Shown here one piece after another: positions 6,001 through 9,000 of a stretch of 64,000 nucleotides of DNA. How positions within the stretch are numbered: the first letter of the stretch is position 1; every line of letters starts with the position of its first letter. Made by a program: the position numbers. This DNA comes from Escherichia coli O157:H7 (GTDB taxonomy: Bacteria; Pseudomonadota; Gammaproteobacteria; Enterobacterales; Enterobacteriaceae), in assembly GCF_013167455.1 (NCBI RefSeq), contig NZ_CP038328.1; one strand, 5' to 3'.

Positions 6001-9000
6001 GGTTGGGCAAGAACCAGCCTGCGTGAAGACCTGCCCAACGGGCGCGATTCACTTCGGTACGAAAGAGTCGATGAAAACGCTGGCGAGCGAGCGCGTGGCG
6101 GAGCTGAAAACCCGCGGTTACGACAATGCGGGCCTGTACGATCCGGCAGGCGTCGGTGGTACACACGTTATGTACGTGCTGCACCATGCTGACAAGCCAA
6201 ATCTGTATCATGGCTTGCCGGAGAACCCGGAAATCAGCGAAACCGTGAAATTCTGGAAAGGCATCTGGAAACCGCTCGCAGCTGTTGGCTTTGCGGCTAC
6301 CTTCGCAGCCAGTATCTTCCACTACGTGGGTGTCGGTCCGAACCATGCGGATGAGGAAGAGAATAATCTGCACGAAGAGAAAGACGAGGAGCGCAAATGA
6401 AACGACGTGACACCATCGTGCGCTACACCGCGCCGGAACGTATCAACCACTGGATCACCGCCTTCTGCTTCATCCTGGCGGCGGTGAGCGGGCTGGGCTT
6501 TTTGTTCCCGTCCTTCAACTGGTTGATGCAAATCATGGGCACACCGCAGCTGGCGCGAATTCTGCACCCGTTTGTCGGCGTGGTTATGTTTGCCTCGTTC
6601 ATCATCATGTTTTTCCGTTACTGGCATCACAACCTAATCAATCGGGATGATATCTTTTGGGCGAAGAATATTCGTAAGATCGTCGTCAACGAGGAAGTAG
6701 GTGACACCGGGCGTTATAACTTCGGTCAGAAATGCGTTTTCTGGGCGGCGATTATTTTCCTGGTTCTGCTGCTGGTGAGCGGCGTGATTATCTGGCGTCC
6801 TTATTTTGCGCCTGCTTTCTCAATCCCGGTGATCCGATTCGCGTTAATGCTGCATTCATTTGCCGCAGTGGCGTTAATTGTGGTTATCATGGTGCATATC
6901 TACGCCGCCCTTTGGGTGAAAGGCACGATTACCGCCATGGTGGAAGGATGGGTTACCAGCGCTTGGGCGAAGAAACATCACCCGCGCTGGTACCGTGAGG
7001 TCCGCAAGACAACGGAAAAGAAAGCTGAATGAGTATTCGCATAATCCCGCAAGATGAGCTGGGTTCGAGCGAGAAACGTACGGCGGATATGATTCCGCCG
7101 TTATTGTTCCCTCGGCTCAAGAATTTATACAACCGCCGCGCCGAGCGTCTGCGCGAGCTGGCAGAAAATAATCCGCTGGGTGATTACCTGCGCTTTGCTG
7201 CGCTTATCGCCCACGCCCAGGAAGTGGTGCTGTACGACCATCCGCTGGAGATGGATCTGACTGCGCGCATTAAAGAAGCCAGCGCACAAGGCAAGCCCCC
7301 GCTGGATATTCACGTTCTGCCGCGTGATAAGCACTGGCAAAAGCTGCTGATGGCGCTGATTGCTGAGCTGAAACCTGAAATGAGCGGCCCGGCGCTGGCA
7401 GTGATTGAGAATCTGGAGAAGGCATCGACTCAGGAGCTGGAAGATATGGCCAGCGCACTGTTTGCCTCTGATTTCTCGTCCGTCAGCAGCGATAAAGCGC
7501 CGTTTATCTGGGCTGCACTGTCGCTCTACTGGGCGCAGATGGCCAATCTGATCCCCGGCAAAGCCCGCGCTGAATACGGCGAGCAACGTCAATATTGCCC
7601 GGTTTGTGGTTCTATGCCGGTGTCCAGCATGGTGCAAATTGGCACCACTCAGGGGCTACGTTACCTGCACTGCAACCTGTGTGAAACTGAATGGCACGTT
7701 GTGCGCGTAAAATGCAGCAACTGCGAGCAGAGCGGCAAACTGCATTACTGGTCGCTGGATGACGAACAGGCCGCGATTAAAGCCGAAAGCTGCGATGACT
7801 GCGGCACTTACCTGAAAATTCTCTATCAGGAAAAAGAACCGAAAGTTGAAGCCGTGGCAGATGACCTCGCCTCTCTGGTACTGGACGCGCGAATGGAGCA
7901 AGAAGGCTATGCCCGCAGTTCCATCAACCCGTTCCTGTTTCCGGGTGAAGGGGAGTAATCTCTGACGTTTTCCGGGTGGCGCTGGTCGCCCGGATTACAG
8001 CTCATAGGGTGTGACGACACCATCTCTCGTATTCCGCGTTACCACCTCAAGCTATGCCGCCAGTGCCTGTTTTGCCTCAATTTACCCACCCCCACATCAA
8101 TAAGGTTATGGGTATGAGACTGATGATAAGCGTAAGATTGCCTGATGCGCCGCGCTTATTAGGCCTACCAATAAACTGCAATACATTGAATTTATACGAC
8201 TTTGTAGGCCGGGTAAGGCGTTCACGCCGCATCCGGCATGAACAACGCGCACGTTGTCAGCAATCTGATTGATATCATTTTTTCCCATTACCATTCCTCG
8301 CGCAGCTTACGCTGGTATTCGACACCATCTTCCTCACACCCTTGCCATATGCCAAAAGCACTGGTTCTTACTGTTTGCGATTGATTTACCAAGTATTGAT
8401 CTACCGCTTCCCGTAATAGCTCCGTACGAGGAAGATTACGCTGCACCTCAAGATCATCAAGTTGCTTAATCACCTCATTCGATAAATCGAGTATAATTCT
8501 GCCCATATCAATACCTGCCAGAGAGTTCATAAATATTTGACCAATATCATTTGATATCTATGGAGAGAAAAGTACCCTTGTCGAATCTTTAAAGAAAGCT
8601 CATTTACGCATCATTTTTTATTTTTGCGAGGCGTTTTCCAGATATGATGTAACAGTTGCAGTTATTATAAGTTCAAGTAAAACAGCCTTCTATTAATACC
8701 AGAATAAGGGCATCTGTTTTTTATATTCAAGAATGAAAAATTTTTGTCATTCCTTATGCTCCTTACACTGATCATCAACACCAACTACCTCCCCCTTTTG
8801 CCTGCCTCCCTTTGCTTTACGCACCGGGAATTGCTGACGTTCCAGATATTGCTCTACCGCTTCGCGTAAAATTGCAGATCGTGAAACCTTACGCCAGCCC
8901 CGAAGCTTGTTCAGCCGTTTAATTGCCTCTTCTGATAAATGAAGAAAAACCGTATTCATCGCCATTACCACCACCTTACATATATTACTCATTAATGTAT

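What the first reader, a model, noticed from the sequence alone, without database searches (positions are those of the whole stretch)
8140..8238. REP palindromes at several convergent and intergenic junctions
GCCGGATG…CATCCGGC-type palindromic units recur at 8140-8238, 27501-27577, 37370-37457, 40829-40907, 50041-50078 and 63171-63284. This is normal for E. coli and is noted only so that these palindromes are not mistaken for CRISPR or mobile-element repeats.
Basis: partly seen in the sequence, partly recalled or inferred. Interest (0 to 1): 0.1.

Follow-up and report, generated by a model that had tools for sequence, protein, structure and literature searches.

The report
Ordinary E. coli REP/BIME palindromes
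The six palindrome clusters are standard E. coli REP/BIME repeats sitting between converging genes; this is a long-known, ordinary genome feature, not CRISPR or anything new.

Summary
The window is an E. coli O157:H7-type chromosome segment (frvR to fadA/fre), 3 mismatches from NZ_CP022689.1.

It holds 11 full REP units and one partial unit, and no others. They fall into the three known E. coli types: Y (35 nt), Z1 (about 30 nt) and Z2 (37 nt).
- 8139-8238, 37369-37458 and 40828-40908 are BIME-1 (Y, long linker, Z1).
- 63170-63281 is a short BIME-2 (Y, Z2, partial Y).
- 27500-27577 is a Y plus a decayed partner.
- 50042-50078 is a single Z2-like unit followed by a T7 run.

All six lie between converging transcription units. 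The Y consensus matches 4 times against 0 in shuffles. Each full unit folds into a hairpin, and the position that separates Y from Z covaries.

The loci are shared with K-12 but differ in copy number (fadA-fre has 3 Y-Z2 pairs in K-12 and 1 here). The first locus has an allele lacking the element in another strain.

The most likely role is as 3'-UTR hairpins that stabilise or attenuate transcripts, on DNA that may also bind IHF and gyrase. The repeats probably descend from elements spread by the RayT transposase. In O157:H7 rayT carries a premature stop.

Verdict: already known, low interest.

The parts
8117..8268 (.). Full repeated unit at the fdhE>|<yiiF-like CopG junction: BIME-1 plus conserved flanks
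   Evidence: The paralogous copy in the entD-fepA spacer of strain ST648 aligns over exactly this span (H115, query 217-369; alignment). Strain DP033 lacks this stretch. The right flank 8239-8268 is also shared, inverted, with 37339-37368 (I1: 68 nt, 88%).
8139..8168 (-). Z1 REP unit (GTAG reads on the - strand)
   Evidence: 90% to the Z1 consensus. Hairpin -11.0 kcal/mol.
8169..8203 (.). L linker of BIME-1, with an IHF-consensus-like site at 8179-8191 (-)
   Evidence: WATCAANNNNTTR with 1 mismatch. The linker aligns with those of the other two BIME-1.
8204..8238 (+). Y REP unit
   Evidence: 1 mismatch to the 35-nt Y consensus. Hairpin -20.3 kcal/mol, z = -3.7.
27500..27534 (-). Y REP unit, 8 nt after the ompL stop codon
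   Evidence: 1 mismatch to Y. Hairpin -21.3 kcal/mol, z = -4.9. ompL ends at 27491.
27551..27577 (+). Decayed short Y-like inverted partner (GTTG in place of GTAG, inner stem missing), 4 nt from the yihN stop codon
   Evidence: Profile E = 0.005. Hairpin -15.7 kcal/mol, z = -4.8. yihN ends at 27582.
37339..37368 (.). Conserved flank outside the Y unit of the yshB>|<hemN BIME-1
   Evidence: Part of the 68-nt, 88% inverted match with 8201-8268 (I1).
37369..37403 (-). Y REP unit (variant head GCCAGATG)
   Evidence: 2 mismatches to Y. Hairpin -10.4 kcal/mol.
37404..37428 (.). L linker of BIME-1
   Evidence: Alignment A1.
37429..37458 (+). Z1 REP unit
   Evidence: 100% to the Z1 consensus. Hairpin -12.9 kcal/mol.
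40828..40853 (-). Shortened Y-like unit (inner stem deleted, ATGG in place of GTAG), 20 nt after the yihA stop codon
   Evidence: E = 0.004. Hairpin -12.1 kcal/mol. Same form in K-12.
40854..40878 (.). L linker with an IHF-consensus-like site at 40856-40868 (+)
40879..40908 (+). Z1 REP unit (GTTG in place of GTAG), 24 nt from the 3' end of spf (Spot 42)
   Evidence: 85% to Z1. Profile E = 5e-6. Spot 42 lies at 40933-41051 (-).
50042..50078 (+). Single Z2-like REP, 6 nt after the mobB stop codon and followed by A+T7 (50079-50086); it lies next to the rrnA terminator hairpin at 50098-50123
   Evidence: E = 5e-6. Hairpin -21.4 kcal/mol, z = -3.9. Sequence. Terminator hairpin.
63170..63204 (-). 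Y REP unit of the BIME-2, 5 nt after the fadA stop codon
   Evidence: 1 mismatch to Y. Hairpin -19.6 kcal/mol. fadA ends at 63164.
63220..63256 (+). Z2 REP unit of the BIME-2
   Evidence: 100% to the 37-nt Z2 consensus. Hairpin -21.9 kcal/mol, z = -5.5.
63269..63281 (-). Partial Y head (TGCCGGATGCGAC), a remnant of a further BIME-2 repeat
   Evidence: It does not fold (z = 0). K-12 has three Y-Z2 pairs at this locus.

Best explanation
The six loci are members of the E. coli REP family (also called palindromic units). They are organised as BIME-1 (Y, L linker, Z1; three loci), a short BIME-2 (Y, Z2, partial Y; one locus), a Y with a decayed partner, and one solitary Z2-like unit.

Shown here: sequence identity to the three known unit types; hairpin-forming potential with covariation; strictly extragenic position at the 3' ends of converging transcription units; many copies per genome; and copy-number and presence/absence differences between strains.

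Inferred from published work on other REPs:
- When transcribed from either converging gene, the hairpins sit in the 3' UTR. There they block 3'-to-5' exonucleases and partly stop read-through, in part with the help of Rho. At three junctions (fdhE/yiiF, ompL/yihN, yshB/hemN) no intrinsic-terminator-like signal was found, so the REPs are the only strong 3' hairpins there.
- As DNA, the L linker of BIME-1 can bind IHF, and the Y units of BIME-2 can be bound and cut by gyrase.

Origin, also inferred: the units were spread and amplified by the single-copy HUH/Y1 transposase RayT (TnpA-REP), which recognises GTAG plus the hairpin. In the O157:H7 lineage that this window matches, rayT has a premature stop at codon 99, before the catalytic Tyr115. 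These copies are therefore probably no longer processed by RayT and now change only by recombination or slippage and point decay.
For: Identity:
- Matches to the Y/Z1/Z2 consensus run up to 100%, with 4 Y matches against 0 in shuffles.
- Unit lengths of 35, 30 and 37 nt agree with y 35, z1 29 and z2 37 nt, and the GTAG and AA-GC bulge described in PMC8266576 are visible in alignment A2.

Structure:
- All 11 full units fold, at -10 to -22 kcal/mol with z from -2.2 to -5.5.
- 95.3% of outer-stem cells pair, against 20-42% when the partner is slid. The Y/Z position covaries: GC x6, UA x4, GU x1.

Architecture:
- It fits the BIME-1 and BIME-2 definitions in PMC3333891.
- The three BIME-1 align through their L linkers.

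Location:
- All units lie outside annotated genes, at 6 of the window's 8 convergent junctions.
- About 30% of E. coli convergent junctions hold a REP, and REPs act as terminator/stabiliser elements (bioRxiv 10.64898/2026.03.23.713779).
- There are no intrinsic-terminator-like sites at three junctions.

Dispersal:
- Queries containing these BIMEs hit a median of 10 (BIME-1) or 30 (BIME-2) places per genome in 5,425 of 5,426 genomes.

Variation between strains:
- The fadA-fre spacer is 380 bp with 3 Y-Z2 pairs in K-12 and 191 bp here. The span of the 591-nt query at this locus ranges from 578 to 878 bp across strains.
- The element at 8117-8268 is absent in strain DP033.

Gyrase: cleavage sites are over-represented in BIME-2, mostly in y units (PMC6379681).

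RayT:
- It is an intact 165 aa in K-12 and W99stop in O157:H7, including NZ_CP022689.1.
- Y115 is the catalytic residue (PMC8266576).
Against: - No functional data exist for these six particular copies. REP effects are reported to depend on context and to be absent for some REPs.
- The IHF consensus match is weak evidence: 1 mismatch in two of three L linkers, 2 or more in the third, and the motif is not enriched in the window (53 found against 59.5 expected).
- Three units have lost GTAG, which E. coli TnpA-REP does not tolerate, and one is a fragment, so some copies are clearly decaying.
- REP numbers do not differ clearly between strains with and without tnpA-REP (PMC3333891), so RayT-driven spread is not proven.
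The papers I read confirmed only their lengths, the GTAG and the bulge.
Confidence: 0.93

Rival explanations
1. The units are REPs by descent but have no function at these sites. They would be neutral or selfish leftovers, tolerated because the 3' ends of converging genes are the least harmful place to sit.
For: Several units are decayed: GTAG is lost at 27551, 40828 and 40879, and 63269-63281 is a fragment. The first locus is dispensable in some strains, and copy number at fadA-fre varies freely. REP effects on half-life are not uniform.
Against: Hairpin pairing is kept in 95% of cells, with compensatory Y/Z changes. At least 3,427 genomes keep the first locus at 90% identity or more. REP-containing convergent pairs show higher expression genome-wide. 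Pairing could, however, be kept by RayT recognition rather than by any benefit to the host.
Confidence: 0.25
2. The main role is at the DNA level. BIME-1 would act as an IHF-bound bend and BIME-2 as a strong gyrase site, both serving as topological insulators between converging, highly transcribed units (for example next to rrnA and fadBA).
For: IHF-consensus-like sites lie in two L linkers, in the same orientation relative to Y-to-Z1. The literature reports IHF binding to BIME-1 L and gyrase cleavage in BIME-2 y units independent of transcription. Converging transcription piles up positive supercoils exactly where these elements sit.
Against: The IHF motif match is no better than chance density in the window. 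The BIME-2 here has only one full Y-Z2 pair. Only a subset of BIME-2 holds gyrase sites. No binding data exist for these copies. This role does not exclude the RNA-level role.
Confidence: 0.2
3. They are ordinary Rho-independent terminators that only happen to resemble REPs.
For: They are GC-rich hairpins at gene 3' ends. The unit at 50042-50078 is followed by A+TTTTTTT and could end mobAB transcripts as an intrinsic terminator.
Against: Ten of the 11 full units lack a T-run, and the terminator scan finds none at the REPs. The sequences are near-identical to a dispersed family with tens of copies per genome, which independent terminators would not be. fadBA and spf have their own separate terminators, at 63325-63350 and 40965-40940.
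Confidence: 0.03
4. They are a CRISPR array, or the terminal inverted repeats of an IS or transposon.
For: They are short repeated palindromic units of 30-37 nt.
Against: Neighbouring units are inverted, not direct, and loci are 3-26 kb apart. No tandem array is detected, and no cas or transposase gene lies in the window. Nothing coding lies between paired units; linkers are 12-35 nt.
Confidence: 0.01

Closest known systems
E. coli REP / palindromic units of types Y, Z1 and Z2 (Higgins, Gilson, Bachellier; as summarised in PMC8266576 and PMC3333891)
   Same: Length, GTAG tetranucleotide, outer stem GCC(G/T)GAT, AA-GC bulge, type-specific inner stem, extragenic position, and tens to hundreds of copies per genome.
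   Different: Nothing essential. Three units have lost GTAG, two have lost the inner stem, and one is a 13-nt fragment. This is ordinary decay, and most of it is also seen at the same sites in K-12.
BIME-1 (also called RIB/RIP elements): Y, L linker, Z1, with an IHF site in L
   Same: The loci at 8139-8238, 37369-37458 and 40828-40908 each have one Y and one Z1 in inverted orientation, a 25-35 nt linker, and a single copy per locus. Conserved flanks extend the repeated unit to about 152 nt (8117-8268).
   Different: The IHF consensus is imperfect: 1 mismatch in two linkers and 2 or more in the third. The 40828 copy has a shortened Y.
BIME-2: tandem (Y, short linker, Z2)n; gyrase target
   Same: 63170-63281 has Y and Z2 with 15-nt and 12-nt linkers, and tandem copy number varies between strains (1 pair here, 3 in K-12).
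   Different: There is only one full pair plus a fragment here, so this would be a weaker gyrase target if it is one at all.
REPIN/RAYT systems (Pseudomonas REPINs; E. coli REPtron with rayT/yafM)
   Same: Two inverted REPs plus a spacer behave as one unit. A single-copy rayT sits between yafL and the flhA-like gene in the same genome.
   Different: In this lineage rayT is a pseudogene (W99stop). I found no evidence of recent movement in the six loci, all of which are shared with K-12.

Membership tests
E. coli REP (Y/Z1/Z2 palindromic units) | Imperfect palindrome of 20-40 nt able to form a stem-loop | tested here: met
   All 11 full units fold, at -10.4 to -21.9 kcal/mol. 95.3% of outer-stem cells pair, against 20-42% for slid controls.
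E. coli REP (Y/Z1/Z2 palindromic units) | Sequence match to the y (35 nt), z1 (29 nt) or z2 (37 nt) type | tested here: met
   Identity is 85-100% over the full length for 8 units, and 3 units match only in part: two shortened or decayed Y-like units and the Z2-like 50042-50078, which matches at 96% over 25 of 37 nt. Y matches number 4 against 0 in shuffles.
E. coli REP (Y/Z1/Z2 palindromic units) | Conserved 5' GTAG tetranucleotide | tested here: met
   GTAG is present in 8 of 11 units. It reads GTTG at 27551 and 40879 and ATGG at 40853 (alignment A2). Those three are decayed copies.
E. coli REP (Y/Z1/Z2 palindromic units) | Conserved AA-GC mismatch bulge in the stem | tested here: met
   Columns 12-13 read AA and columns 28-29 read GC in 8 of 11 units. 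The bulge also appears in the predicted folds.
E. coli REP (Y/Z1/Z2 palindromic units) | Extragenic location | tested here: met
   All units lie between annotated genes or RNAs. The best profile hit inside a gene has E = 0.07.
E. coli REP (Y/Z1/Z2 palindromic units) | High copy number, dispersed over the genome | tested here: met
   Median of 10 places per genome for the BIME-1 query and 30 for the BIME-2 query, in 5,425 of 5,426 genomes. Both are lower bounds from megablast.
BIME-1 | One y and one z1 in inverted orientation, separated by the long L linker, single copy per locus | tested here: met
   Three loci fit this. Their linkers of 35, 25 and 25 nt align with each other. Definition from PMC3333891.
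BIME-1 | IHF binding in L | tested here: inconclusive
   WATCAANNNNTTR with 1 mismatch is found at 8179-8191 and 40856-40868 but not in the third linker, and the motif is not enriched in the window. Binding itself cannot be tested here.
BIME-2 | y and z2 with short linkers, in tandem copies whose number varies between strains | tested here: met
   The locus is Y, 15 nt, Z2, 12 nt, partial Y. K-12 has 3 pairs. The locus span ranges from 578 to 878 bp across strains.
BIME-2 | Bound and cleaved by DNA gyrase | not testable with these tools
   Literature only (PMC6379681).
REPtron / RAYT-associated REP | A cognate rayT (tnpA-REP) gene in the same genome | tested here: inconclusive
   The gene is present at yafL-flhA in NZ_CP022689.1 and in all listed O157:H7 genomes, but with an internal stop at codon 99. 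It is intact in K-12.
CRISPR array | Three or more direct repeats at regular spacing with unique spacers, usually with cas genes | tested here: not met
   Neighbouring units are inverted, there is no tandem array, and no cas genes are annotated.
Rho-independent terminator | GC-rich hairpin immediately followed by a U-tract | tested here: not met
   The scan finds none at the REPs. By eye, only 50042-50078 is followed by a T7 run.

The most novel reading that the evidence does not exclude
Because rayT is truncated (W99stop, before catalytic Y115) throughout O157:H7, the REP/BIME population of this lineage may be a frozen and slowly eroding fossil set. On this reading, the smaller BIME complement in this 64-kb segment relative to K-12 (11 full units against 16; fadA-fre has 1 pair against 3; no REP in the glnA 3' UTR) would be a signature of decay after transposase loss, not of K-12/clade A expansion.
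Probability: 0.2. Interest if true: 0.3.

Novelty: already known. Interest (0 to 1): 0.06.

Why it matters
It matters mainly for annotation hygiene. Marking these 11 full units and one fragment as REP/BIME keeps them from being misread as CRISPR, terminators, sRNAs or transposon ends. It also explains why spacer lengths differ between strains at fadA-fre, yshB-hemN and fdhE-yiiF.

There is minor biological value. The hairpins sit 4-8 nt from the stop codons of ompL, yihN, mobB and fadA. They are the only strong 3' structures at three convergent junctions. They are therefore reasonable candidates for strain-specific tuning of 3'-end formation.

Tried and rejected
- A fuzzy-regex scan with up to 7 errors timed out. 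I replaced it with blastn-short and an nhmmer profile.
- Rfam at gathering threshold has no REP family hit. It returned only rRNA, tRNA, CsrC, Spot 42, SECIS and a few other sRNAs, none of which overlap the REPs.
- The current K-12 RefSeq feature table shown by the tool carries no REP repeat_region features, so a direct look-up of curated REP names was not possible.
- The Boccard and Prentki 1993 paper (PMC413762), which I wanted for the L/IHF consensus, is not held.
- The paper on REPs within 15 nt of stop codons lowering translation (Liang, Rudd and Deutscher 2015, recalled from memory) could not be retrieved. That mechanism is mentioned only as a lead.
- CRISPR, IS terminal repeats and plain intrinsic terminators were considered and rejected on geometry and sequence.
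- Whether the DP033 allele lacking the element reflects an insertion or a deletion could not be decided, because the roughly 40 nt to the left of the element have also diverged.
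Full report
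**Identity of the window.** A 1.2-kb query around the finding matches many E. coli O157:H7 chromosomes at 100%. The whole window differs from NZ_CP022689.1 positions 1878014-1942013 by 3 substitutions and no indels, so that record's annotation can be used directly. The segment runs from frvR through yiiG, fdhD, fdoGHI-fdhE, yiiF/yiiE, fabY, the yih sulfoquinovose cluster, typA, glnALG, hemN, csrC, yihA, spf, polA, dsbA, mobAB, rrnA, hemG, trkH, pepQ and fadBA to fre. It corresponds to K-12 4.027-4.089 Mb in reverse orientation. Rfam confirms the rrnA operon, CsrC, Spot 42 and the fdoG SECIS.

**The observation.** I scanned the window with the three E. coli REP consensus types. The strings came from memory; their lengths, the GTAG and the AA-GC bulge agree with PMC8266576. 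The scan found these units:
- Z1 8139-8168 (90%) and Y 8204-8238 (97%)
- Y 27500-27534 (97%)
- Y 37369-37403 (94%) and Z1 37429-37458 (100%)
- a shortened Y 40828-40853 and Z1 40879-40908 (85%)
- a Z2-like unit 50042-50078
- Y 63170-63204 (97%), Z2 63220-63256 (100%) and a 13-nt Y head at 63269-63281

A further short palindrome at 27551-27577 is a Y-like unit that has lost its inner stem.

The matches are not chance. The Y consensus with up to 3 mismatches matches 4 times, against none in 100 shuffles. The 8-mer GCCKGATG occurs 19 times against 5.0 +/- 2.4 expected, and 11 of those lie in the six loci. A profile built from the units finds nothing else below E = 0.05. The repeat finder independently links the loci to each other (D2, D8, D13, I1-I6).

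**Structure.** Each full unit folds into a hairpin of -10 to -22 kcal/mol, with z-scores from -2.2 to -5.5; the 13-nt fragment does not fold. In an alignment of the 11 units, 95.3% of outer-stem cells form standard pairs, against 20-42% when the 3' partner is slid by 1-3 columns. The position that separates Y from Z covaries: G-C in 6 units, U-A in 4, G-U in 1. GTAG is present in 8 of 11 units. Two units read GTTG and one reads ATGG.

**Architecture.** By the definitions in PMC3333891, three loci are BIME-1: one Y and one Z1, inverted, separated by a 25-35 nt L linker. The three align through L. The fadA-fre locus is a BIME-2: Y, 15 nt, Z2, 12 nt, partial Y. In every pair the CTAC and GTAG ends face each other across the linker.

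- A paralogous copy in the entD-fepA spacer of another strain aligns over window 8117-8268 (H115).
- The 30-nt flank beyond Y is shared with the yshB-hemN copy (I1: 68 nt, 88%).

**Context.** All six loci lie between converging transcription units: fdhE and the yiiF-like CopG gene; ompL and yihN; yshB and hemN; yihA and spf; mobB and rrfA; fadA and fre. They occupy 6 of the window's 8 convergent junctions and none of the co-directional or divergent ones. Genome-wide, about 30% of convergent junctions hold a REP.

Several hairpins start very close to a stop codon: 8 nt after ompL, 4 nt before the end of yihN, 6 nt after mobB and 5 nt after fadA.

No intrinsic-terminator-like signal is found at the fdhE/yiiF, ompL/yihN or yshB/hemN junctions. 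By contrast, fadBA and spf have their own terminators next to the BIME. The mobB REP is followed by A+T7 and could itself act as an intrinsic terminator. The scan cannot score bulged stems, so this is by eye.

**Comparison with other genomes.**
- All six loci also hold REPs in K-12. The fdhE-yiiF, ompL-yihN and yihA-spf copies differ only by point changes.
- fadA-fre has three Y-Z2 pairs in K-12 (380-bp spacer) and one here (191 bp). Across 5,426 genomes the span of the 591-nt query at this locus ranges from 578 to 878 bp.
- yshB-hemN is rearranged: K-12 has an extra partial Y and a Z2, and a truncated Z1.
- K-12 has a REP in the glnA-glnL spacer that is absent here (sequence).
- In total the K-12 segment has 16 profile hits (excluding one weak hit, E = 0.04, inside fabY), against 11 full units here.
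- The first locus is present at 80% coverage or more in at least 3,427 genomes. It is missing as a block of about 150 bp in strain DP033 and is interrupted by IS621 in strain PM4-5.
- Queries containing the BIMEs hit a median of 10 (BIME-1) or 30 (BIME-2) places per genome.

**Mechanism.** What is shown here is membership of the REP/BIME family and hairpin potential under conservation.

What is inferred from the literature:
- At the RNA level, REP hairpins in 3' UTRs protect upstream mRNA from 3' exonucleases and attenuate read-through, partly through Rho. They can work in both directions between converging genes.
- At the DNA level, IHF binds BIME-1 L and gyrase cleaves the y units of BIME-2.

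The IHF consensus is present with one mismatch in two of the three linkers. That motif is no more frequent in the window than chance predicts, so this point stays open.

The origin is also inferred. RayT/TnpA-REP recognises GTAG plus the hairpin and cleaves nearby. I checked rayT:
- It is detectable in 3,574 of 5,426 genomes, which matches the two-thirds reported in PMC3333891.
- It is intact in K-12.
- It carries a TGG-to-stop change at codon 99 in NZ_CP022689.1 and in every O157:H7 genome listed. That is upstream of Tyr115, the catalytic residue.

If RayT is what moves REPs, these copies are now immobile.

**Verdict.** These are ordinary, long-known E. coli REP/BIME elements. The refinements are:
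- half the units are Z-type;
- all six junctions are convergent;
- the first element is really 152 nt long;
- REPs are themselves thought to derive from mobile elements.

Novelty: already known. Interest: low.

Noticed in passing
outside the window: L006 1501-1998 (NZ_CP028677.1); same allele in NZ_CP022689.1 1018916-1019813: rayT (tnpA-REP/yafM), the transposase thought to mobilise REPs, has a premature stop at codon 99 (W99stop) in all O157:H7 genomes listed, before catalytic Y115. It is intact in K-12. PGAP and the Sakai record already flag it as a pseudogene. About 306 records carry this allele region at 99% identity or more.
   Followed up: partly
window 50124-50136 (between the rrnA terminator hairpin and rrfA): Relative to K-12, the window lacks 168 bp downstream of rrfA. 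In K-12 this stretch holds a terminator hairpin (rrn T1-like) and a partial 5S rRNA copy. Here 5S is followed directly by the T2-like hairpin at 50098-50123. A likely cause is recombination between the 5S 3' end and the 5S fragment.
   Followed up: no
L009 (NZ_CP096834.1, strain PM4-5), equivalent to window 8166: In this strain homology to the window breaks inside the Z1 REP, after ...ATCAGGCCT, and an IS621 (IS110-family) transposase gene follows. This is an example of the known targeting of REPs by IS elements (PMC1525189 title).
   Followed up: partly
window 34470-34643 (glnA-glnL spacer): K-12 has a REP (4056520-4056555) inside its annotated glnZ sRNA in the glnA 3' UTR, and its spacer is 285 nt. 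The window's spacer is 174 nt and has no REP. The GlnZ 3'-UTR sRNA would therefore differ in length between the strains.
   Followed up: partly
window 8589-8666 and 9027-9104: A 78-nt direct repeat (77% identity) lies upstream of each of the two adjacent CopG-family genes (yiiF-like 8288-8530 and yiiE 8747-8965). This suggests a tandem duplication of gene plus leader or promoter.
   Followed up: no
window 9659-11473 and 20836-21711: Some genes here are absent from the K-12 equivalent. Two adjacent hypothetical genes lie between yiiE and fabY. A TauE/SafE-family sulfite exporter gene lies between yihR and yihQ in the sulfoquinovose cluster, where K-12 has only a 198-nt gap.
   Followed up: no
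window 39712-39878: PGAP annotates a frameshifted 'hypothetical protein' pseudogene that lies entirely inside the CsrC sRNA (39651-39904; Rfam 277.9 bits). This is probably an annotation artefact.
   Followed up: no
window 53651-53698 and 55323-55370: A 48-nt inverted repeat (77%) brackets the 16S rRNA gene (I4). This is consistent with the known RNase III processing stem of the rRNA precursor.
   Followed up: no
whole window: REPs occupy 6 of the 8 convergent junctions. The two without are frvR|yiiG and yihG|yihF, with spacers of only 40-49 nt. REPs occupy none of the tandem or divergent junctions. The published genome-wide figure for convergent pairs is about 30%. The numbers are small and the comparison is post hoc.
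   Followed up: partly
window 24895-25186 and 26305-26596: A 292-nt direct repeat at 73% identity lies within the adjacent MFS transporter genes yihP and yihO (D1). It reflects their paralogy.
   Followed up: no
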